A DNA stretch of 64,000 bases from a phage (PZ379177.1); one strand, 5' to 3'; positions 12,430 through 45,147 are shown, counted from the stretch's first letter. A program made the numbers and translations. Notes: a model not told the origin generated them from the sequence alone.

Positions 12430-13848
12430 TTATTCCCCTTTCAACCAAGCTTCAAATGCTTCGTCAGTTGCTGCAGAATCCGCAGCGGCCTTTTGTTTTG
12501 CGACTACACGCTGTTTTTGACCGTGTTCAACGCCGCGCAGATAGTTATCCACAACGTCAAACTCAGCACCATCAACGCACTTCAAGCCTAACTTTTTAGC
12601 GCCATATTTCGCTACGGACTTGGAGTCCATAGTTGCATGATCAAAGGCACCAACAACTTTAGACAGGCGCTGGTAGAGGCTATTCTTACGAGCAGAATCA
12701 GCGTAGAAAGCAGCAACTGCTGAATCAGATGCCATTGAGTGTTCCCCTTTTGCTGGACCTGGCGACGCTTTCGCCGCTTTTGTCGGTTTGTCATCTTTTT
12801 CGACCGAAGCCCCCTTTACGTTGCTGTTTTGCAGGCCGCTAACCACATCTTCAGCTTTGTCGCAAGGTGATACATCTTCAGCCTTGACTTCAACTTCTTC
12901 GTCTTTGACTTCGGCTTCAACTTCTTCTTCATCACCTACCGCGCCACCTTTCAGTTTTGCAATAAGTGCTTCGATTTGGCTGATCAGTTGCGGAAGCTCG
13001 CCACCAGCGTGAGATTCAGTTTCAACTTCAAACTTCTCTTCACCTTCTGGAGTCTCTTCAGCTTCTGCTTTGACTTCTGGATCAACCATCACTTCTTCAC
13101 GTTCTTCGGTTGAATCCTTCTCTTCTGCTTTCACTTCAACTTCGTCCTGATGAGCAGCTTCGGTGCTCTCTTCATTCAGAAATTGTTCGAGCGCAGGGAT
13201 CAGTGATTTCAGCTGTTCAACAGCATTATCACGCGCTTTACCTTTTAACGGTTTTGGCATGTCTAAATCCTCGTTGGATGGTGTTACAGTCGTCAAACAA
13301 AGATGGTCAAAGCAACGACCATCCAGCACCCGTGCACCTGGTACTCGACCAACGTCCACGAGAGCAATGTGGTTGCCGCGAAGAGTTGTCTGTACCACTT
13401 CATACGGCTGCCCGTCAAACTCTCCAGACTGTATGATGAATTCACAGTCATAGCCCAAAGACAAGTCAACCTTTCCAGAATCGATGGCTTTCTTCAGACG
13501 ACGGCTAAAAACTTTAAGATCGCCGCGCATCCATGGCTTGTCATAATAAACATTGCCAGTTAGAACGCCATCAACGCCATACTCTTCGGGTGCTGTGTTA
13601 TCCTCATCACCTTCGAATCCAGAAAGCATTTCGTGATTGTCTATGAAAGGGATATTTTTGAATGAATCTATCGCTTCGGGGTCTTTCACCGCTGACTCTG
13701 GGCGATAAACTTTTACGATGCGATTCGGATCACCATCAAGTCCAACCTGACCTGCAGAATAATCAAAAATGCCAAATGACGAAATGGGACAACCCACAAT
13801 CGTCAAGAATCCATTTTTGTCAATTTCGCGTGCCGTTTGCATTCGCAT
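12430..13848 (-). CDS. scaffolding protein with N-terminal prohead-protease-like domain (putative)
   Basis: 472 aa; C-terminal half highly acidic (E/K/V/A low complexity) typical of scaffolds; first gene of leftward structural operon. Confidence 0.45.
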   Translation of the reverse strand: MRMQTAREIDKNGFLTIVGCPISSFGIFDYSAGQVGLDGDPNRIVKVYRPESAVKDPEAIDSFKNIPFIDNHEMLSGFEGDEDNTAPEEYGVDGVLTGNVYYDKPWMRGDLKVFSRRLKKAIDSGKVDLSLGYDCEFIIQSGEFDGQPYEVVQTTLRGNHIALVDVGRVPGARVLDGRCFDHLCLTTVTPSNEDLDMPKPLKGKARDNAVEQLKSLIPALEQFLNEESTEAAHQDEVEVKAEEKDSTEEREEVMVDPEVKAEAEETPEGEEKFEVETESHAGGELPQLISQIEALIAKLKGGAVGDEEEVEAEVKDEEVEVKAEDVSPCDKAEDVVSGLQNSNVKGASVEKDDKPTKAAKASPGPAKGEHSMASDSAVAAFYADSARKNSLYQRLSKVVGAFDHATMDSKSVAKYGAKKLGLKCVDGAEFDVVDNYLRGVEHGQKQRVVAKQKAAADSAATDEAFEAWLKGE

Positions 13849-13958: not shown

Positions 13959-14221
13959 GATACGGATGATACGGATAAAATGAGGCGTATTTTTATCCGT
14001 ATCGGTGTATAAGCCGCGCTATCACTGGTGTGCTACGGATGATACGGATGATACGGATACTTTTCATATATAAGAGTTTATAAAAAAAATAAAATTAAAT
14101 TAGATATATAATTTTAAATTAATTTATTTGAATTCCTATAAAGTATCGCGGCAACGCGTATCATCCGTATCATCCGTAAGATTCTTTTGAAAACAACTAC
14201 TTACTTGATACGGATGATACG
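13959..14221. repeat. complex regulatory repeat module copy 1: inverted arrays of 9-bp GATACGGAT units flanking an AT-rich core
   Basis: GATACGGATGATACGGATA at 13959 and 14041, ATCCGTATC in opposite orientation at about 13995 and 14156-14184; core 14060-14150 is >85% AT. Confidence 0.6.
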
Positions 14222-25644: not shown

Positions 25645-25651
25645 GGATTAT

Positions 25652-25849
25652 GTGAATCAAAATGAATCAGTAGCATTCTTACAATGGCTGGAAGGTGTGG
25701 TGGAGTATTACGCTCCAAAAGACCGCTTCATCTTTCAAGGAAAAAGTTACAAGCGCAAAGGGCAGGCCCAGAAAGCAGCGCGTAAGTACTGGAAGGAAGT
25801 TTATTCAGAGTTCTTTCAGCAGATGGGCAGCACAGTTGGTATCGATTGA
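25652..25849 (+). CDS. hypothetical protein
   Basis: 65-aa ORF. Confidence 0.4.
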   Translation: MNQNESVAFLQWLEGVVEYYAPKDRFIFQGKSYKRKGQAQKAARKYWKEVYSEFFQQMGSTVGID

Positions 25850-25944
25850 TGAATGTTGATTTCGTGATGTTTTTGATCATATTGGCGATAAGTTCAGTAT
25901 TTGTTGTCGCTATGATCGCGCTTATTGATTGGTTGGATAAATAA
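25849..25944 (+). CDS. small hydrophobic protein (31 aa), not in ORF track
   Basis: ATG shares its A with the upstream TGA stop; product MNVDFVMFLIILAISSVFVVAMIALIDWLDK is a single transmembrane helix. Confidence 0.3.
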   Translation: MNVDFVMFLIILAISSVFVVAMIALIDWLDK

Positions 25945-26602
25945 ATCGTGGTTTTGGTGATTTTGGTGATTTAACCGTGAATCGTGGGTCGCTGTGGCGG
26001 CCCTTTCTTTTGCCTGCCGCGCAGGAGTGTACTGCAAATTTACTGTGGGCACAAAATAGTACGGTACTGTCCAGGACTTTTTCTTTGAAAAGTTAGTGGA
26101 CCAAATGTGTCGTATTTTGATTAGTGTACTGCAAATTCCATCAAGTAGCAAAACGCACCAAAAGACCCATGCCATAAAAACCACACGAACGCAATAATCA
26201 ATCGCCGTTACAGTTTCCAGCGTTACAATTCGAAAGCGAATGATTCGATGCATAATAATATGAAGCATAATGATTCGAAAGCTAATGATTGCGTGTAGGA
26301 TAATATCGGTGGGGATTATTCTAGATGCATGTAATTTCGCATGCGTACTATTTTCGGACGAAGGGTCGGCATATTCCTCGTTTTAGTTCGGAACGAAGGG
26401 AAAGTTTTGCGCCTTTATAAAACAATGACTTACGCGACCCGCCCTAACGGTCCGATATAGGTGTCTATATAAAACAAGGACTTACGCGATGTTCTCCATT
26501 TAACGTAATACCCGTTATGCGAACTAAGGCGCATCTCGACGAAGATTATGCGACGACGAAGGGAAGGATAAAGGAGTTTTCGCGGAGAAGCGCATCGAGA
26601 TA

Positions 26603-26634
26603 GGGACGAAGAAAAGCCGCGACTAAGCGCGGCC
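26603..26634 (-). terminator. rho-independent terminator closing the leftward arm of the atypical cassette
   Basis: minus-strand hairpin GCCGCGCTTAGTCGCGGC followed by TTTTCTTCG, about 20 nt after the 26654 stop. Confidence 0.4.
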
Positions 26635-26653
26635 TATTAGTAACGGAAGGGTA

Positions 26654-26944
26654 TTATAAGGAAACGATTTTAAAGAAAGAGTAACGGCCTTCGCCTTCGG
26701 ATACCGCGAGATATTCGCCGCCGAACTCCGTAGCAAAATAAACCTTGCCTTCGATAGTAACGCGGAAGGTAGAAATATCTTCCTCTTCGAGTTCCGTAAA
26801 TTCGCTAAAATCGATAGGACTATGAAGCTCCTCGATAGTCGCATCTACGTTAAAGAGATAAACGTTTTTAAGTTTTTCGCCAAATACGTTAGAGTTTTCG
26901 GAAGTTTCGGCGCGAGCGTTACGGATAGCGGCTAAAGTAATCAT
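26654..26944 (-). CDS. hypothetical small acidic protein (cassette gene 1)
   Basis: 96 aa; AGGAGATTATTATG initiation context; CG-rich codon usage unlike flanking phage genes. Confidence 0.55.
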   Translation of the reverse strand: MITLAAIRNARAETSENSNVFGEKLKNVYLFNVDATIEELHSPIDFSEFTELEEEDISTFRVTIEGKVYFATEFGGEYLAVSEGEGRYSFFKIVSL

Positions 26945-27045
26945 AATAATCTCCTAGTTGGGTCGGGAGGGTAGCGACCTATTCGCTACCTCATCCCCTC
27001 TCGATATAAAACATTATAGTCTTAGTGTACGAAGAAGTAAAGCAC
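26945..27045 (-). promoter_or_regulatory. sigma70-type promoter plus structured 5' UTR for cassette gene 1
   Basis: minus strand TTTACT-N17-TATAAT, then hairpin GGTAGCGA-ATAGG-TCGCTACC, then AGGAG RBS. Confidence 0.5.
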
Positions 27046-27052
27046 TTTTTCA

Positions 27053-27355
27053 TTATTCTGCGATAAAATATTTATAAGCTTTATCGCCTTCTACGTCGAT
27101 ATACTCGACGATAATTAACGCTTCGCCGCGAGGCGTAACCGTCTCGATAAGGGTAACGGCTTCGTCGTCGGTCTTCGCGAAGCGGATGGCGCTACGTTCG
27201 GCATACTTCATATCGTCGAAGGAAAGGCCGATGAAGGCGACCGCGCGGACCTTAATGGCGCTAGATTCTAGTTCCGCGTTAACGGCGGCGATAAGAGAGC
27301 GAACAGTTAAGCGGTCTTCGTCGTAAGTAAGGATGGAAGAGATTAAAGTAGTCAT
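27053..27355 (-). CDS. hypothetical small acidic protein (cassette gene 2)
   Basis: ORF trimmed to MTTLISS start with GGGAGCTTTATTATG context; same atypical codon style. Confidence 0.55.
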   Translation of the reverse strand: MTTLISSILTYDEDRLTVRSLIAAVNAELESSAIKVRAVAFIGLSFDDMKYAERSAIRFAKTDDEAVTLIETVTPRGEALIIVEYIDVEGDKAYKYFIAE

Positions 27356-27396
27356 AATAAAGCTCCCGATGCTAGTAGAAGAAAGGGCCATCGCCC

Positions 27397-27579
27397 GTCT
27401 CGATATAAACAAGTATACGCGAGTGTACGAAGAAGTAAAGAAAAAAGATAAAATAATTTATCGCATTTTTATCTAAAAAGTGCTTTACTTTTTTCTACAC
27501 TATATTATAATGTACTCATATCGGGACGGGATGAGTTAACGAATAGGTCGTTAACGCCTCTCCCAACTAGGAGTTTATT
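27397..27579. promoter_or_regulatory. divergent promoter pair with central palindromic operator and structured 5' UTR
   Basis: leftward TTTACT-N16-TATACT; rightward TTTACT-N16-TATAAT; between them AGATAAAA-N13-TTTTATCT; rightward UTR hairpin GTTAACGA-ATAGG-TCGTTAAC then AGGAG RBS. Confidence 0.5.
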
Positions 27580-27894
27580 ATGGCTATCGTTACCCGCTTT
27601 ACCCTCGAAAACGCAACCGCCGAAGTCCAGGGCGTTACGCTTACTTACGGCGAAATTCTCGCTAAATTCTCCGGCGTTCGCTTAGGCGAAGAAATTAACG
27701 ACGCGACGGTAATCGAGCAACTCGCTGCTTCTCGCTTAGAGCGCGACGAAAACGGATTCTTCGAAGTCGATGCGGAATTAAATTTATGCGGTAAAACGGC
27801 GTTTATTAACGAGTTCGAACTCGCCGTTTTAGTTAATTACGATAGCAAAGCTTACGCCTTCGCCCTCGAATTAATCGAAGACGACGAAGAGTAA
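27580..27894 (+). CDS. hypothetical small acidic protein (cassette gene 3)
   Basis: 104 aa, acidic C-terminus IEDDEE; AGGAGTTTATTATG context. Confidence 0.6.
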   Translation: MAIVTRFTLENATAEVQGVTLTYGEILAKFSGVRLGEEINDATVIEQLAASRLERDENGFFEVDAELNLCGKTAFINEFELAVLVNYDSKAYAFALELIEDDEE

Positions 27895-27974
27895 GAGAGG
27901 ATTTTTAGAGCGTCGTGCGCGGCGCTTTAATAAAATTCTTTCGCGCCTAGCGCCCTAACAAATAGGAGTTTATT

Positions 27975-28601
27975 ATGGTTAGCTTAAATCGCTTTTCTAC
28001 TAGCGGCGACGTTATCGCAACTAAGACCGCCGACCTCGTTGCATTCTATAATGCAAATTCCGGCTCAAAACCGATTAAGAAGTTTGCGGACCGCCGGACC
28101 GCCGAGACTCGCGTAATCGCGTTAATCGAGTCCTTAAACGCGCTCGATGCGCCGTCCAACGAGTCGCCCATCCCCGACGCGAAGGCGCGCGAGGAAGTGT
28201 CCAGCGATGTAAAAACTCATAAGGCGCGTGCGGTCGTTAAAAAGGCTGAGCCGACCCAGGAAGAACTCGACGCGATGACCGACGAAGAATATGAAGCCTT
28301 CGTTAAGAGCGGTTTAAATGATAGTGCAAATTGCGTAGTGCAAAATGGAACTCCTTCCCATCGCCGTTCGAATAGCGAAGGTATTGCAAAAAGCTGGGAT
28401 AATAAGGAAGTGGCGCAAAAGCGTCTCACCCGTAACGGTGTCATGGTCGAGGGTGTAGGCGAGTTCAAATCGGTCCGCGTAGCGTTCGCTGCGCTGGGAT
28501 TACCGGATAGCAAGCACATTCGCTTCCGCATGAAGCTTAAGGAAGCTGGGCGCTTGAACTTCGAGTTCGGCAACAAGTCCTACACCTTCCAGATTATCTA
28601 A
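27975..28601 (+). CDS. hypothetical protein (cassette gene 4)
   Basis: 208 aa; identical AGGAGTTTATTATG context; contains two ATAGTGCAAAT-type motif copies in its coding sequence. Confidence 0.6.
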   Translation: MVSLNRFSTSGDVIATKTADLVAFYNANSGSKPIKKFADRRTAETRVIALIESLNALDAPSNESPIPDAKAREEVSSDVKTHKARAVVKKAEPTQEELDAMTDEEYEAFVKSGLNDSANCVVQNGTPSHRRSNSEGIAKSWDNKEVAQKRLTRNGVMVEGVGEFKSVRVAFAALGLPDSKHIRFRMKLKEAGRLNFEFGNKSYTFQII

Positions 28602-28607
28602 TAGAAT

Positions 28608-28631
28608 GGCGGCCCTTCGGGGTCGCTTTTC
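28608..28631 (+). terminator. rho-independent terminator closing the rightward arm of the cassette
   Basis: hairpin GGCGGCCC-TTCG-GGGTCGC followed by TTTT, 7 nt after the 28601 stop. Confidence 0.4.
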
Positions 28632-28651
28632 ATAGTGCAAATTGGTGGCTT

Positions 28652-28915
28652 ATGAATACGCTCATTCTCATCGCTACGTTATCCATCGGAAGTGGTCGCA
28701 CCTTATCCCTTTACGACCATAGTGCAAATTGCGCTTATCCTACGCGCGTTGCGGCGATAGTTAATAGTGCAAATAAGATGCTATTCGAGACTTGCTGGCG
28801 GGTCGATAACGAGAAAGGTCGGGTAGTCTTAGGTTATAGTGCAAATCTGCTGGTGGAGTCGTTCGATTGGACGGTTGAAGGTCGTAAATTGTTACGGAAA
28901 GTGACTAAAAGATGA
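28652..28915 (+). CDS. questionable ORF (87 aa) carrying three in-frame copies of the 11-mer
   Basis: weak RBS; motif copies read as HSANCA, NSANKM, YSANLL; may be a repeat region rather than a gene. Confidence 0.25.
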   Translation: MNTLILIATLSIGSGRTLSLYDHSANCAYPTRVAAIVNSANKMLFETCWRVDNEKGRVVLGYSANLLVESFDWTVEGRKLLRKVTKR

Positions 28916-28976
28916 CTTATAATAATACACTTTCTAACGCGTTTATGGTTGTAACCTTCCCCGTCGTATTACCGAT

Positions 28977-29016
28977 GGCCCTAGAAGTGGAGAAAATGTG
29001 TTCTAGGGCCGTTTTA
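28977..29016 (+). terminator. rho-independent terminator
   Basis: perfect 10-bp inverted repeat GGCCCTAGAA...TTCTAGGGCC followed by GTTTTA. Confidence 0.5.
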
Positions 29017-29029
29017 TAGTGCAAATTGG

Positions 29030-29503
29030 CTAGTGGCGGGAGAATTGCTCACCTTCTTTGGCCGCCTCTCCAAAATCCTTGTAGAAATCGTCCATGGAAC
29101 GGCCCATTTTACTATTGCCGTTTTCATCAATCATCGTGATGCCGTAGATGATATTCAGTTCACGAATAGCATTAAGTTTGGCTGACGCCGCGACTTCTGG
29201 ATCACGCACAAGCTTGACCAAATTGTGAATTGCACCTTTTACGCTCCACAAATCCTTGAGTGGCATCTCTTCCATACGCTTTTTGAAGCGCATCTTGTAG
29301 TATGGATTGCGTTGCGCGCAAAGGATTCGCTGGCCAGTGTAGTTATCCGTTGCAACTTCCATTCCAAATACTAGTGCAAAAGCTGCGCGCATGTCATGGC
29401 CCTGAATAACAAGGTCAATGAACTCATCGAATAAAGCCTGATTGTGCTCTGCAAATCGCGGGTCTTCAAAGTCTTCAGGCATCGCTACATAATCTTGACT
29501 CAT
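29030..29503 (-). CDS. hypothetical protein (speculatively terminase small subunit-like)
   Basis: 157 aa with normal phage codon style; no clear SD; both candidate ATGs lie inside copies of the 11-mer (read as TTTGCACTATG on the coding strand). Confidence 0.45.
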   Translation of the reverse strand: MSQDYVAMPEDFEDPRFAEHNQALFDEFIDLVIQGHDMRAAFALVFGMEVATDNYTGQRILCAQRNPYYKMRFKKRMEEMPLKDLWSVKGAIHNLVKLVRDPEVAASAKLNAIRELNIIYGITMIDENGNSKMGRSMDDFYKDFGEAAKEGEQFSRH

Positions 29504-29654
29504 AGTGCAAAATCCCATAGTGCAAATTAATAGTGTGAATTATACAATGGATGGACATTATATTCAAGTGCAGATTGATGTTCATTATGGCTATAAACGT
29601 ACACAAATCATAGTGCTGAATGGATAACGGACCGTGGTGCGTGGTGTACTGTTT

Positions 29655-30004
29655 GATACGGATAAAAGAAATCCATCCCTTTCGCCGCTTGTTATGCAAA
29701 TCAATGACTTAGCCGCTGCTGGCTGGTTTAAGCGTATCATGACGTATCATCCGTATTGCCGCAAGTCTTTGTTTTTACTTATATCTTACGGATAATACGT
29801 TAAATATATAAATTAACATAAGTATGAGGATGTAGAAAAAAAATTAATTTAAATTAATTCAAAATGGAGTTAATTAATTTTTGAAATAATTCTGGTTACA
29901 ATAAGGAAAAATGGCGTATCATCCGTATCATCCGTAAGATTCAGTGTACAAATCCAGGCGCGGCGCACCCTAGCGCCATGATACGGATAAAAACCTATCC
30001 GTAA
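29655..30004. repeat. complex regulatory repeat module copy 2 (GATACGGAT units flanking an AT-rich core)
   Basis: 29-bp block GCGTATCATCCGTATCATCCGTAAGATTC identical to 14156-14184; GATACGGATAAAA at 29655 and 29980; AT-rich core 29800-29900. Confidence 0.6.
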
Positions 30005-30319
30005 GAGTGTACGCTTCAATTAAAGAATCCAGGCGCGGCGCGGCTTTCACCACCACACACCACGGTTCACTCTCCAAAATCCGCACACTAAATTCCAAAA
30101 TCCAATGCTCATACTCCAAAAATAAATCCAAATTTCCATTTTATTTATTATTTTCATCCACAATATACTAAATTCTATCCGTATTAACCACGACTCAACC
30201 CACCACGATTCATGCCAATCACTTCAAAATTTCCATCGAAAACGACAAAAGGCCGCGTAAAGCGACCAATTGCACACATTCCATTATTCAAAACACGTAA
30301 ACGAGTGTTCTTTTATCCA

Positions 30320-30859
30320 CTATAATTTAGGCATCAATCCCTTTTCCGTTCTCCTTTTTATCTCGTCTTCTATCATTTTATTGGTCACTCTATAGCCAAT
30401 CCTTTCCAATTCCATTAATACTTCCTTTTGGTATTTTCTTATTTTCACAATGTCAACCGTATCCCTCCAATAAGATAATACCTTCTTAATGACTGACTTT
30501 TCCATTTTATATCTGGCGGTAGTCATATACTTCATTTTAAAAATAGAGTTGATCGCATCAGTCTTTAACCATTCCTTTCTTAATTCAGGATGATCATTCC
30601 AAAGAGTAATGGCGAACTCCTGCGGACTTTTGCACCTGCTTTGAAGCTCCTTTATATAGTCAGCCGTTTTTACTTTTCTATCTAAACGCGCGCGGCAAAC
30701 GGTGCACTCTTCCTTGAGCAACCAATCGGCCTTCTTATCAATTTGCAAAGTTGAATTGCCATCCCTTTTATACCTGCCGCAAAAGCTTATGCCTTCATCT
30801 TTTAAGAAGTAATGCAACTCTTTAGAGTATTTCGCTTTACGCCAAAAGCCTCCCATCAC
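30320..30859 (-). CDS. hypothetical protein
   Basis: 179-aa basic ORF. Confidence 0.45.
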   Translation of the reverse strand: MMGGFWRKAKYSKELHYFLKDEGISFCGRYKRDGNSTLQIDKKADWLLKEECTVCRARLDRKVKTADYIKELQSRCKSPQEFAITLWNDHPELRKEWLKTDAINSIFKMKYMTTARYKMEKSVIKKVLSYWRDTVDIVKIRKYQKEVLMELERIGYRVTNKMIEDEIKRRTEKGLMPKL

Positions 30860-31425
30860 CCCTCCTTAACTACCCGATAAGCAACAACGTCCCAAGCTTC
30901 TCCGTGGTGATCCCAATGCAAAACACTCGAGTGAATTTGATCATTGCCACGTTCGCCGTTACGCATTTTGAATTCAACCATTTCCCCAGGCACCGGATTA
31001 TCGCCACCAAACCACACGGTCCACGCTTCCTCCTTCGGCGCATCAGAATCCACGCCTATAGTAGCAACGACGTCATGCAACTGCTTAACGAGCGCCGACG
31101 CATCACGGACTTGTGAGCGTAATGCAACCAACTCGCGTTGCACTTCACTGTATTTCGCTTCCAGCGCGGCATAATCAGCAAACTTCACATATGAACCAGA
31201 GGTGTCATCACCCTCTGTATTGAGCCATGCATCATTGCAGTTTACTGCATACGTTTTAACTTCACCGCATTTCGGCTCAAGCGCGACGCGACTTTTTACT
31301 TCACTGTATTTCGCTTCCAGCGCGGCATAGTCCTCATATTCAACATAGCCGCCTTCATCATCCTTTACAACTTCGCATGTGCAAGCGTGCTGCGTGCAAT
31401 AATCAACATCATAACGTTGTATCAT
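30856..31425 (-). CDS. hypothetical protein with internal tandem duplication
   Basis: 189 aa; repeated block DYAALEAKYSEV encoded by duplicated DNA around 31138-31175 and 31288-31325. Confidence 0.45.
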   Translation of the reverse strand: MIQRYDVDYCTQHACTCEVVKDDEGGYVEYEDYAALEAKYSEVKSRVALEPKCGEVKTYAVNCNDAWLNTEGDDTSGSYVKFADYAALEAKYSEVQRELVALRSQVRDASALVKQLHDVVATIGVDSDAPKEEAWTVWFGGDNPVPGEMVEFKMRNGERGNDQIHSSVLHWDHHGEAWDVVAYRVVKEG

Positions 31426-44148: not shown

Positions 44149-44307
44149 TGTTGACGTAAATTTACGAAAAATAAAACTGAAAATCAGTTTAATTAAAGTG
44201 GCATTGCCGCCATAGTTTTTAGTTGCTACTGGCGGCGACTGAAGGCATAATTAAGTTATCCCAAACGGGGAATATAAAATAAACTAATTTATTTAAGGAC
44301 TGTGAAT

Positions 44308-45147
44308 ATGGCCGAAGCAATCAAAGTATTATCTAAAGAAGAAAAACAAGCAGCCGCAGCAGAACGTCGTCGCGTGGCTGAAGAAAAACGCCTGGCTAAA
44401 AAGAAAGAAGCCGAAGAAAAACGCCAGAAGCGTGAGCAGGAAAAACAAGCCAAGCGTGAAGAAGCTGCGCTGAAACGCAAGCAAGCTGCTGATGAGAAGG
44501 CTCAGAAGCGTGCTGAAGAAGCAGCTAAGAAAGCTAAAGAGCGTGCAGAAAAGGCTGCCGCTAAGAAGGCAGAGCGTGAAGCCGCTAAAGCCGCTAAAGA
44601 AATTGAAAAGGCAAAGGCGAAAGAAGAAGCCAAGCGCCTGAAAGCTGAGCAGGCTGCGGCCAAGAAAGCTGAGCGTGATCAAGCCCGTGCTGCAGCGAAG
44701 GCCGAAAAAGAGAAGGCAAAAGAAGAAGCTAAAGCGAAACGCAAGGCAGAGCGTGAAGCTGCTAAGATTGCGGCGAAAGAAGCTGCAGAACAGCAGAAAG
44801 AACAGCGTAAGAAAGAAGCTGAAGAACGTCGCAAAGCCATCGCAGAACGTAAGGCTGCTAAAAAGGCAAACGGTCAGCGTCGTGCAAAAGCCACTCACTT
44901 CATCTACACTGGCAATGGCCTGAGCCAGCCGCAAGAGCATTCCACCCGTGGACGCGTTCTGGCGGCGATCAAAGAAGGCGAAGTTGGCGTGGCGCAGTCT
45001 ATCGATGAGCTGGGCGAAAAAGTTAAAGATCAACTGTTTGGCGCTTCCGTTCGCTCCTACCTGAGCAAGCTGGAAGAGATGGGCCACATCGAGTTTGTCG
45101 ATGTTGAATCCAATGACGATGCCGAAGACGGTGATCAAGCGGAATAA
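44308..45147 (+). CDS. Lys/Ala/Glu-rich coiled-coil protein with globular C-terminal domain
   Basis: about 190 aa of KAE low-complexity repeat, then a non-repetitive 80-aa C-terminus; RBS AAGGA before ATG at 44308. Confidence 0.5.
   Translation: MAEAIKVLSKEEKQAAAAERRRVAEEKRLAKKKEAEEKRQKREQEKQAKREEAALKRKQAADEKAQKRAEEAAKKAKERAEKAAAKKAEREAAKAAKEIEKAKAKEEAKRLKAEQAAAKKAERDQARAAAKAEKEKAKEEAKAKRKAEREAAKIAAKEAAEQQKEQRKKEAEERRKAIAERKAAKKANGQRRAKATHFIYTGNGLSQPQEHSTRGRVLAAIKEGEVGVAQSIDELGEKVKDQLFGASVRSYLSKLEEMGHIEFVDVESNDDAEDGDQAE

What the first reader, a model, noticed from the sequence alone, without database searches (positions are those of the whole stretch)
26226..26653. Repeat-rich non-coding region downstream of the cassette: AATGATTCGA triplet, duplicated 22-mer, ACGAAGGG repeats
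There are three AATGATT(C)G copies (about 26239, 26269, 26284). A 22-mer TATAAAACAA[T/G]GACTTACGCGA is repeated 52 bp apart (26415 and 26467). At least five ACGAAGGG-like units follow (about 26347-26650). The only ORF here (25894..26268, minus strand) has no RBS and looks spurious. Leftward cassette transcripts terminate at about 26603-26634, so this stretch may encode a separate ncRNA or hold regulatory sites.
Basis: seen in the sequence. Interest (0 to 1): 0.45.

Follow-up and report, generated by a model that had tools for sequence, protein, structure and literature searches.

The report
Conserved repeat block at phage genome end
The repeat-rich stretch is the untranslated last ~490 bp of the 3.7-kb direct terminal repeat of a Wifcevirus E. 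coli phage, starting 65 bp from the physical chromosome end; it is most likely a DNA-level signal for cutting or packaging the genome, not a small RNA.

Summary
The repeats are real. The 22-mer (in fact a 25-mer) occurs twice. ACGAAGGG occurs three times, and these are its only exact copies in 64 kb. AATGATT occurs three times inside a 15/45-bp tandem duplication.

The window is a Wifcevirus (WFH/WFC/Mansfield-like myovirus). In four relatives with mapped ends, the direct terminal repeat (DTR) ends at window 26160|26161. In WFC it ends at 26079|26080. The finding is therefore the non-coding tip of the DTR. It lies between two convergent terminators (25986-26011 on +, 26635-26606 on -).

Across 17 genomes the 22-mer/CGAAGGG zone (diversity 0.034) and the 65-bp tip (0.017) vary about 3-6 times less than third codon positions of neighbouring genes (0.10-0.16). 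The AATGATT zone varies like neutral sequence (0.094), and one relative has lost exactly one 45-bp unit.

Nothing supports an ncRNA: no Rfam hit, folding z-scores of -0.1 and -0.35, and no compensatory pairs. No ORF is conserved, and no DnaA or IHF sites are present.

Best reading: a cis-acting DNA module for genome-end processing or packaging. The closest analogue is the conserved repeat region at the T5 terminal-repeat boundary. The mechanism is inferred, not shown. Interest is modest.

The parts
25986..26011 (+). Intrinsic terminator ending the rightward (+ strand) genes; left edge of the conserved non-coding block.
   Evidence: Hairpin GGGTCGC-TGTG-GCGGCCC followed by TTTCTTTT. Annotated as a terminator at the homologous site in WFH and WFC. 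Sequence left of ~25975 is not conserved among relatives.
26026..26040 (+). 15-mer AGTGTACTGCAAATT, copy 1. It lies outside the DTR.
   Evidence: Exact direct repeat of 26123-26137. Both copies are exact in 8 of the 16 relatives; the other 8 keep only one exact copy.
26079..26080 (.). Alternative DTR boundary, as deposited for phage WFC (3784-bp DTR).
   Evidence: Comparison of the two ends of MK373777 and mapping to the window. It sits in a 20-bp stretch invariant in 17 genomes.
26123..26137 (+). 15-mer AGTGTACTGCAAATT, copy 2. It ends 23 bp outside the common DTR boundary.
26160..26161 (.). DTR boundary, which is the right physical end of the virion DNA. The DTR spans window 26161-29865, and base 26161 is the last base of the chromosome.
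   Evidence: The exact terminal duplications of WFH (3701 bp), SP13 (3899 bp) and Ro157lw (3533 bp) and the PhageTerm DTR of Mansfield (3673 bp) all end at the homologous ...GGGTCTTT|TGGTGCG (PMC6753283, PMC6454146).
26161..26225 (.). Terminal 65 bp of the DTR, strongly conserved.
   Evidence: Nucleotide diversity 0.017 across 17 genomes, against 0.10-0.16 at third codon positions of neighbouring genes.
26228..26317 (+). 45-bp tandem duplication with a 15-bp sub-period. It carries the three AATGATT(C)G copies (26239, 26269, 26284) and two TTCGAAAG copies. It evolves fast.
   Evidence: Diversity for 26226-26336 is 0.094, close to the synonymous level. Bas100 lacks exactly 45 bp (26229-26273). 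The sigma-70-like hexamers here reach only 9/12 and are not conserved.
26325..26346 (+). Hairpin that looks like a terminator in this window only.
   Evidence: The stem is broken (CAT to TCG at 26328-26330) in 10 of 16 relatives.
26344..26400 (+). Two 22-nt direct repeats (26344-26365 and 26379-26400, 35 bp apart), each ending in ACGAAGGG.
   Evidence: Family D4. CGAAGGG copies are retained in all relatives. 26377-26396 is invariant.
26413..26489 (+). Two 25-nt direct repeats CT(T/A)TATAAAACAA(N)GACTTACGCGA at 26413-26437 and 26465-26489, 52 bp apart.
   Evidence: Present in all 16 relatives; the main variation is at the one position where the copies differ, plus one A-to-G change in copy 1 of WFH and FEC19.
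26529..26568 (+). GCGCATC...GACGAAG unit followed by GACGACGAAGGGAAGGA, which holds the third exact ACGAAGGG (26556-26563). A looser second GCGCATC...GACGAAG unit lies at 26590-26611.
   Evidence: It belongs to the zone 26337-26613, whose diversity is 0.034.
26606..26635 (-). Intrinsic terminator of the leftward DTR genes; right edge of the conserved block.
   Evidence: Zero diversity over 26614-26646 in 17 genomes. Annotated in WFH, WFC and Mansfield. Sequence right of ~26647 is swapped among relatives.

Best explanation
The finding is the untranslated inner portion of a ~670-bp conserved non-coding block (25976-26646). This block straddles the right boundary of the 3.7-kb direct terminal repeat of a Wifcevirus genome.

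Shown:
- The virion DNA ends at window 26160|26161.
- The block is closed off by convergent terminators.
- It has no conserved ORF and no sign of a structured RNA.
- Two parts are under purifying selection at the DNA level: the 65-bp tip, and the zone carrying the 25-mers and CGAAGGG units.
- The AATGATT tandem duplication drifts like a spacer.

Inferred:
- The block works as double-stranded DNA, as the cis-acting module that defines and processes the chromosome end.
- Terminase recognises the invariant sequences bracketing the cut site.
- The paired direct repeats lie 180-450 bp inside the DTR, on the side that ends up in the capsid. They serve as an array of binding sites for the small terminase or another phage DNA-binding protein. 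This array positions the cut and the duplication of the DTR during packaging, in the manner of cosB/pac arrays next to a terminase cut.
For: Identity and context:
- The window is 90-95% identical to 29 Wifcevirus records.
- The DTR ends of WFH, SP13, Ro157lw and Mansfield map to the same homologous base, window 26160|26161. WFC's end lies 81 bp further out. Two of these ends were PhageTerm determinations (PMC6753283, PMC6454146).
- The other DTR end maps to 29865|29866.
- The small terminase gene lies inside the DTR (29030..29518, E=6e-34 to PDB 7UXE, the E217 TerS).

Constraint:
- All 29 records keep at least 96% of the block, 25 of them at 95-99% identity (the other four 89-95%), while the genes on both sides are replaced.
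- Diversity is 0.017 (tip), 0.034 (25-mer/CGAAGGG zone) and 0.000 (terminator). Third codon positions of five neighbouring genes give 0.10-0.16. The adjacent AATGATT zone gives 0.094, which shows that local genealogies are deep.
- Invariant 20-bp stretches bracket the cut.
- The repeats are significantly non-random.

Alternatives weakened:
- No RNA signal.
- No conserved ORF.
- No host or plasmid homologue.
Against: - No binding or cleavage data exist; the role of the repeats is inferred from position and conservation only.
- Each repeat family has only 2-3 copies. None recurs at the other DTR boundary.
- A different array is an equally good or better candidate for the TerS recognition site: TAGTGCAAA, 10 copies on one strand at 28322-29518, around terS, conserved in relatives.
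- E217 TerS showed no appreciable DNA binding in vitro (PMC9611059).
- No IHF-type site lies in the block.
- The whole DTR is well conserved in the genus, so conservation alone is not specific to this block.
- The termini of this particular phage were not measured.
Confidence: 0.45

Rival explanations
1. A T5-like DNA-entry control region. If the left end enters the cell first, the block is the last part of the DTR to enter. It could act as an injection-pause or tethering signal (like the T5 iss in Repeat Region 3), or as a site that protects or processes the entering DNA, separating early DTR genes from the rest.
For: The position matches T5. T5's Repeat Region 3 is a large untranslated, repeat-dense region that straddles the inner end of the left terminal repeat. 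It is highly conserved, while the adjacent coding region is not (bioRxiv 10.1101/866236, read). The same pattern is seen here. The DTR carries small genes of unknown function behind sigma-70-like promoters. Promoters near the left end point inward (29584/29567).
Against: The defining T5 features are absent. There are no DnaA boxes in or near the block. There are no long inverted repeats (best pair 23 nt at 74%). No A1/A2-like genes were recognised. Two-step injection has never been reported for this genus.
Confidence: 0.15
2. An iteron-type origin of replication. The conserved direct repeats would bind an initiator, and the neighbouring AT-richer 15/45-bp repeat zone would serve as the unwinding element.
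For: The layout fits: direct repeats of 22-25 nt at 35- and 52-bp spacing, next to a 37.5% G+C repeated zone. The region is transcriptionally insulated and non-coding, and is conserved at the DNA level.
Against: Each family has only two copies. There are no DnaA boxes. No recognisable initiator gene is adjacent, and the adjacent genes are swapped among relatives. The putative unwinding zone evolves neutrally and varies in copy number. GC skew follows transcription direction and shows no feature here.
Confidence: 0.15
3. A non-coding RNA. It would be transcribed rightward from the promoter-like sites at 26230-26304 through the CGAAGGG/25-mer zone, possibly antisense to the leftward cassette.
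For: There are three sigma-70-like matches on the + strand (26169-26198, 26230-26259, 26275-26304; 9/12 each). The zone downstream of them is conserved.
Against: The number of promoter-like matches is at chance level (4 found against 3.0±1.9 expected). Their hexamers vary or are deleted in relatives. No + strand terminator follows. There is no Rfam family. Folding z-scores are -0.12 and -0.35. None of 94 predicted pairs shows a compensatory change, and some pairs are broken.
Confidence: 0.08
4. A decayed gene remnant with no function of its own. Its conservation would be a by-product of serving as a homologous-recombination anchor between exchangeable gene modules.
For: The zone shares the unusual CpG excess (observed/expected ~2.0) of the adjacent genes. 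It forms part of a compositional island at ~26250-28500 that is unique in the window. Mosaic junctions lie exactly at both edges of the block. ACGAAG/CTTCGT words are common throughout the island.
Against: Diversity in the zone is about one third of that at third codon positions of genes 400 bp away, and of the AATGATT zone inside the same block. No frame shows a coding-like substitution pattern. For the 39-aa ORF 26341-26460 I counted 2 synonymous against 9 non-synonymous changes by hand, from the alignments. The repeats exceed what the region's own dinucleotide composition predicts.
Confidence: 0.12

Closest known systems
Bacteriophage T5 'Repeat Region 3' / injection stop signal region at the inner end of the left terminal repeat (Davison, bioRxiv 10.1101/866236)
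   Same: Both are large untranslated, repeat-dense regions that straddle the boundary of a long direct terminal repeat. Both are highly conserved among relatives while the neighbouring coding DNA is exchanged. Both are present at both genome ends because they lie in the repeat.
   Different: T5 has 8 paired DnaA boxes, 131-bp inverted repeats and 9-copy repeat families; none of these is present here. There is no sequence similarity. Here the DTR is 3.7 kb (10 kb in T5) and the block is ~0.67 kb (~1.1 kb in T5). Two-step injection is not known for Wifcevirus.
Terminase recognition arrays next to a cut site: lambda cosB R-sites/cosQ, P1 and SPP1 pac repeats (from general knowledge, not tested here)
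   Same: Short repeated sequences lie within a few hundred bp of a sequence-specific terminase cut, on the packaged side.
   Different: No IHF site. The repeats start ~45 bp from the cut and the conserved ones 180-450 bp from it. The ends are long direct repeats, not cohesive ends or headful cuts. TerS binding is untested.
T7-group concatemer junction with short-repeat arrays beside the terminal repeat (from memory; no paper in the held library was found)
   Same: A non-permuted genome with direct terminal repeats and repeated short motifs next to the repeat boundary, thought to act in concatemer processing.
   Different: As I recall them, the T7 arrays are many copies of a ~7-bp unit just outside a 160-bp repeat. 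Here a few longer units lie inside a 3.7-kb repeat.
Published Wifcevirus DTRs (WFC/WFH, Mansfield, Ro157lw: PMC6563267, PMC6753283, PMC6454146)
   Same: The same genus and the same DTR. The boundary maps to the same homologous base.
   Different: Those papers report only the length of the repeat. In the passages I read, none describes the conserved non-coding block or its repeats.

Membership tests
Boundary region of a long direct terminal repeat (non-permuted DTR genome) | The homologous position coincides with the end of the terminal duplication in relatives that were sequenced with both copies or analysed with PhageTerm | tested here: met
   WFH, SP13, Ro157lw and Mansfield all end at window 26160|26161; WFC ends at 26079|26080.
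Boundary region of a long direct terminal repeat (non-permuted DTR genome) | Read-start peaks and two-fold coverage in this very phage | not testable with these tools
   No reads are available. The window holds a single collapsed DTR copy (26161-29865).
T5 iss / Repeat Region 3 | An untranslated, repeat-dense region straddling the inner end of the terminal repeat, conserved amid variable coding flanks | tested here: met
   comparison with bioRxiv 10.1101/866236.
T5 iss / Repeat Region 3 | Paired DnaA boxes (TTWTNCACA) | tested here: not met
   There are five matches in 64 kb. None falls between 23768 and 48727.
T5 iss / Repeat Region 3 | Large inverted repeats (~131 bp) shared with a second region in the repeat | tested here: not met
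   The longest inverted pair involving the block is 36 nt at 72% complementarity, or 23 nt at 74%.
T5 iss / Repeat Region 3 | Two-step DNA injection that depends on pre-early genes | not testable with these tools
   This needs infection experiments.
cos/pac-type terminase recognition array | Repeated motifs adjacent to a sequence-specific terminus | tested here: met
   Repeats lie from +45 to +450 bp of the boundary, and 15-mers at -23 and -120.
cos/pac-type terminase recognition array | Binding of the small terminase (or IHF) to the motifs | not testable with these tools
   The consensus IHF site is absent. TerS is identified, but binding cannot be computed.
Iteron-type replication origin | Several (usually at least 3-4) iterons, an AT-rich unwinding element, DnaA boxes, and an adjacent initiator gene | tested here: inconclusive
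   There are two copies per repeat family and a 37.5% G+C neighbouring zone. No DnaA boxes. No recognisable initiator gene nearby.
Structured non-coding RNA | A match to a known RNA family | tested here: not met
   No hit at gathering thresholds. The best hits at E<=10 are NsiR4 (17.5 bits against a threshold of 40, overlapping the terminator) and a snoRNA (11.5 bits).
Structured non-coding RNA | Folding energy below shuffles, and compensatory base changes | tested here: not met
   z -0.12 (+ strand, 26300-26653) and -0.35 (- strand, 26161-26613). None of 94 pairs shows a compensatory change. Power is limited by the 95-98% identity.
Protein-coding gene | An ORF intact in relatives with a coding-like substitution pattern | tested here: not met
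   Only ORFs of 25-65 aa, overlapping in several frames. The 124-aa ORF is truncated or variable in relatives. Substitutions are mostly non-synonymous in the 39-aa ORF that Mansfield annotates.

The most novel reading that the evidence does not exclude
The conserved 25-mer/CGAAGGG array plus the invariant sequences around 26160|26161 form the 'ter' signal that tells the terminase where to make the second, distal cut, and thereby sets the length of a long (3.7-kb) direct terminal repeat. How long DTRs are generated is still described as unknown (Casjens & Gilcrease, as cited in PMC6454146). Relatives Bas98-101 grow on engineered E. coli K-12 (PMC11990801). A defined ~0.5-kb cis element would therefore make the question directly testable by mutagenesis. 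The 81-bp shift of the boundary in WFC, which carries point changes near the common cut site, would be a natural variant of this signal.
Probability: 0.3. Interest if true: 0.55.

Novelty: new member of a known kind. Interest (0 to 1): 0.3.

Why it matters
Wifceviruses are under consideration for biocontrol and therapy, and were recently added to the BASEL model collection. They are reported to replicate unusually fast. Their 3.5-3.9-kb terminal repeats are known only as a length.

Locating a compact, selectively constrained, non-coding element at the repeat boundary gives a concrete target for three things: working out how the chromosome ends are made, engineering or rebooting these genomes without destroying cis signals, and annotating the region correctly. 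Several records place small 'hypothetical protein' genes in it.

It is not a new kind of biology. Repeat-dense conserved regions at terminal-repeat boundaries are known from T5.

Tried and rejected
- Known RNA families: Rfam at gathering thresholds on the whole window, and at E<=10 on 25900-26720, found nothing credible.
- tRNA/tmRNA: none.
- RNA structure: single-sequence folds of both strands, and RNAalifold on 16 genomes, showed no excess stability and no covariation.
- Coding potential: six-frame ORF comparison in 17 genomes gave no consistently intact ORF with coding-like substitutions.
- The hairpin at 26325-26346 and the promoter-like sites at 26230-26304 are not conserved.
- DnaA boxes, IHF and Fis consensus sites and GATC are absent from the block.
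- Shared early-promoter family: it occurs at 27013-27041, 27412-27439 and 27484-27511, but not in the block.
- More distant homologues of the block: blastn 'distant' against phages found only the 29 Wifcevirus records. The E. coli genomes and plasmids gave no match. An IMG/VR scan with the 22-mer, and one with TerS, returned only the same genus.
- A TerS-based look at another genus (Salmonella phage PCSE1) showed a different layout and no annotated DTR, so it was not informative.
- PDB, Pfam and PHROG searches of the DTR proteins for a candidate DNA-binding partner identified only TerS.
- A literature search for the T7 short-repeat arrays found no paper in the held library.

Full report
**What the window is.** The segment 25000-28000 matches 29 phage records at 90-95% identity. 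All are Wifcevirus myoviruses of E. coli or Shigella, such as WFH, WFC, Mansfield, ECML-117, FEC19 and Bas98-101. The window's + strand corresponds to the minus strand of the records that start at the genome's left end (WFH, WFC, Mansfield, SP13, Ro157lw). No tRNA and no Rfam family is present anywhere in the 64 kb.

**The observation.** All three repeat types are present.
- AATGATTCGA is exact at 26239 and 26269, and AATGATTGCG lies at 26284. These belong to a 15-bp-period array (26239-26290) inside a 45-bp tandem duplication (about 26228-26272 and 26273-26317).
- The '22-mer' is a 25-mer at 26413-26437 and 26465-26489. No shuffle of the window gave a match.
- ACGAAGGG is exact three times (26358, 26393, 26556). 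These are the only exact copies in the whole window on either strand. Allowing one mismatch adds none locally, so 'at least five' needs looser variants.
- Further paired repeats exist. A 22-nt unit ending in ACGAAGGG occurs at 26344 and 26379. CGTTACA(G/A)TT occurs at 26206 and 26221. A loose GCGCATC...GACGAAG unit occurs at 26529 and 26590.
- The region ranks in the top 2-4% of genome windows for repeated 7-9-mers. It exceeds all 2000 Markov simulations that preserve its own dinucleotide content.

WFH and WFC were deposited with both copies of a terminal repeat. Comparing their ends gives exact duplications of 3701 and 3784 bp. SP13 and Ro157lw give 3899 and 3533 bp. Mansfield carries a PhageTerm-predicted 3673-bp DTR (PMC6753283), and Ro157lw's was also a PhageTerm call (PMC6454146).
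- In WFH, Mansfield, SP13 and Ro157lw the repeat ends at the same homologous sequence, ...GGCATGGGTCTTT|TGGTGCG. This is window 26160|26161.
- WFC's repeat ends 81 bp further out, at 26079|26080.
- The other end of the repeat (the genome's left end, ATTTTG/A...) is window 29865|29866.
- The window therefore carries one collapsed DTR copy at 26161-29865. The finding (26226-26653) is the non-coding last ~65-490 bp of the right end of the virion DNA. In the left copy it is equally the junction to the unique region.
- The DTR also holds the small terminase gene (29030..29518, E=6e-34 to PDB 7UXE, the TerS of Pbunavirus E217).

**Anatomy of the block.** Rightward genes end at a terminator at 25986-26011. 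Leftward DTR genes end at a terminator at 26635-26606. Both are annotated in relatives. Between them lie ~600 bp with no credible gene.

In an alignment of 17 genomes, the sequence between ~25976 and ~26646 is collinear and 89-98% identical. The sequence on both sides is replaced by unrelated genes.

**Selection.** I compared nucleotide diversity across the same genomes.

| Segment | Diversity |
|---|---|
| Third codon positions, five neighbouring genes | 0.10-0.16 |
| First + second codon positions, same genes | 0.01-0.045 |
| 65-bp DTR tip (26161-26225) | 0.017 |
| 25-mer/CGAAGGG zone (26337-26613) | 0.034 |
| Terminator (26614-26646) | 0.000 |
| 185 bp outside the DTR (25976-26160) | 0.043 |
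| AATGATT duplication zone (26226-26336) | 0.094 |

- The AATGATT zone is near the synonymous level. Bas100 has lost exactly one 45-bp unit there.
- Because this fast-evolving zone sits in the middle of the block, the low diversity on either side reflects constraint, not a shallow genealogy.
- Invariant 20-bp stretches bracket the cut site: 26078-26097 and 26177-26196, with only one variable column in each of 26118-26137 and 26197-26216.
The 22-mer and the ACGAAGGG units are constrained. The AATGATT triplet is not.

**Not RNA, not protein.**
- Rfam at E<=10 gives only two chance-level hits, one of which overlaps the terminator.
- The + strand of 26300-26653 and the - strand of 26161-26613 fold no better than shuffles (z -0.12 and -0.35).
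- The consensus fold of 16 genomes has no compensatory change among 94 pairs, and several broken pairs. Power is limited by the high identity.
- The promoter-like matches at 26230-26304 are at chance frequency, and their hexamers mutate or are deleted in relatives. The hairpin at 26325-26346 is destroyed in 10 of the 16 relatives.
- ORFs of 25-65 aa overlap in several frames simply because the DNA is conserved.
- The 124-aa ORF 25894..26268 varies from 37 to 101 aa in relatives and spans the genome end.
- In the 39-aa ORF that Mansfield annotates (26341-26460), I counted by eye 2 synonymous against 9 non-synonymous differences.

**Host-factor sites.** There are no DnaA boxes, IHF or Fis consensus sites, or GATC in the block. 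The block has no homologue in E. coli genomes, in plasmids, or in phages outside the genus.

**Interpretation.** The block behaves as a DNA-level cis element. It sits exactly where the chromosome end is made and is shielded from transcription on both sides.
- The best-supported mechanism (inferred, confidence about 0.45) is recognition by the packaging machinery. Conserved sequences around 26160|26161 would specify the cut. The paired direct repeats on the packaged side would serve as a protein-binding array that positions it, analogous to cosB/pac arrays.
- The closest described system is T5's Repeat Region 3. It too is an untranslated, repeat-dense region straddling the terminal-repeat boundary, conserved amid variable flanks (bioRxiv 10.1101/866236). 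Its defining DnaA-box pairs and 131-bp inverted repeats are absent here, so this is an analogue and not a member.
- An origin of replication, a DNA-entry signal, an unstructured transcript, or a recombination anchor made of decayed coding DNA remain possible. The last is suggested by the CpG excess shared with the neighbouring genes.
- A caution for the packaging reading: a separate, strongly polar TAGTGCAAA array around terS is at least as good a candidate for the TerS recognition site.

**Novelty and interest.** The DTR of this genus is published, but only as a length (PMC6563267, PMC6753283, PMC6454146). The conserved block and its repeats are not described in the passages I read. It is a new example of a known kind of element. 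Its main value is as a defined target for experiments on how long terminal repeats are generated, now that K-12-compatible relatives exist (PMC11990801).

Noticed in passing
window 28322-29518 (+ strand): TAGTGCAAA (consensus ATAGTGCAAATTG) occurs 10 times, all on the + strand and nowhere else in the 64 kb (0.5 expected). The copies fall both in coding and in intergenic DNA, around and inside the small-terminase gene in the left third of the DTR. Of the 15 relatives whose fetched locus covers this part, all keep 8-10 copies on the same strand and none on the other. This is a candidate pac/TerS-recognition or regulator-binding array.
   Followed up: partly
window 13961-14209 and 29657-30177: The heptamer ATCCGTA (as 9-bp tandem units CGTATCATC / GATACGGAT) occurs 23 times (about 8 expected), in two clusters of 9 copies. 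One cluster lies upstream of the head-morphogenesis genes (DUF2213 and cement protein downstream). The other surrounds the left DTR boundary. A 29-bp stretch, GCGTATCATCCGTATCATCCGTAAGATTC, is identical at 14156 and 29914. Both loci also share AT-rich AAATTAATTT runs.
   Followed up: partly
window ~26250-28500: This is a compositional island. CpG observed/expected is 1.8-2.5, against a genome mean of 1.14. Apart from one window at 13501 (1.56), these are the only 1-kb windows above 1.5 in the 64 kb. The island covers the right two thirds of the DTR, coding and non-coding alike, and starts close to the DTR boundary.
   Followed up: partly
window 26935-27060 (-), 27405-27450 (-), 27470-27590 (+): A reused promoter-leader-RBS cassette: AAAAAGTGCTTTACTT(C/T)TT(C)GTACACT...TATAAT, then a leader with a GTAGCGA/TCGCTAC hairpin, then CCCAACTAGGAG-TTATTATG. 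It drives two divergent DTR genes, and a shorter copy drives a third. The 19-mer AGTGTACGAAGAAGTAAAG is exact at 27024 and 27422. Six of the eight AGTGTAC copies in the window lie in or next to the DTR, all on the + strand.
   Followed up: partly
window 26026-26040, 26123-26137, 26079/80: An exact 15-mer, AGTGTACTGCAAATT, is duplicated 97 bp apart just outside the common DTR boundary. WFC's deposited DTR ends between the two copies, 81 bp beyond the boundary of the other four phages. WFC and Bas99 carry point changes in copy 1 and 13-15 bp inside the common cut site. The 15-mer resembles the TAGTGCAAATT motif with 5 extra bases.
   Followed up: partly
window 29866-30300: The non-coding region just outside the left DTR boundary is poorly conserved among relatives, unlike the region outside the right boundary. 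It contains a 33-nt direct repeat ending in AATCCAGGCGCGGCGC (29934 and 30009), and a C/A-rich tract with a strongly negative GC skew (-0.36 for 30001-31000).
   Followed up: no
window 25650-25975: The gene immediately left of the block differs from relatives. They carry a 381-nt ORF (for example WFH_00007). The window has a 65-aa ORF (25652..25849) and a possible 25-aa hydrophobic ORF ending at 25945. A GTGATTTTG x2.8 tandem repeat lies at 25948-25972.
   Followed up: no
window 44200-44600: This is the most k-mer-repetitive stretch of the window, with an AT skew of 0.38. It lies inside ORF 44302..45147. Tandem Repeats Finder reports no array, so it is probably a low-complexity coding region.
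   Followed up: partly
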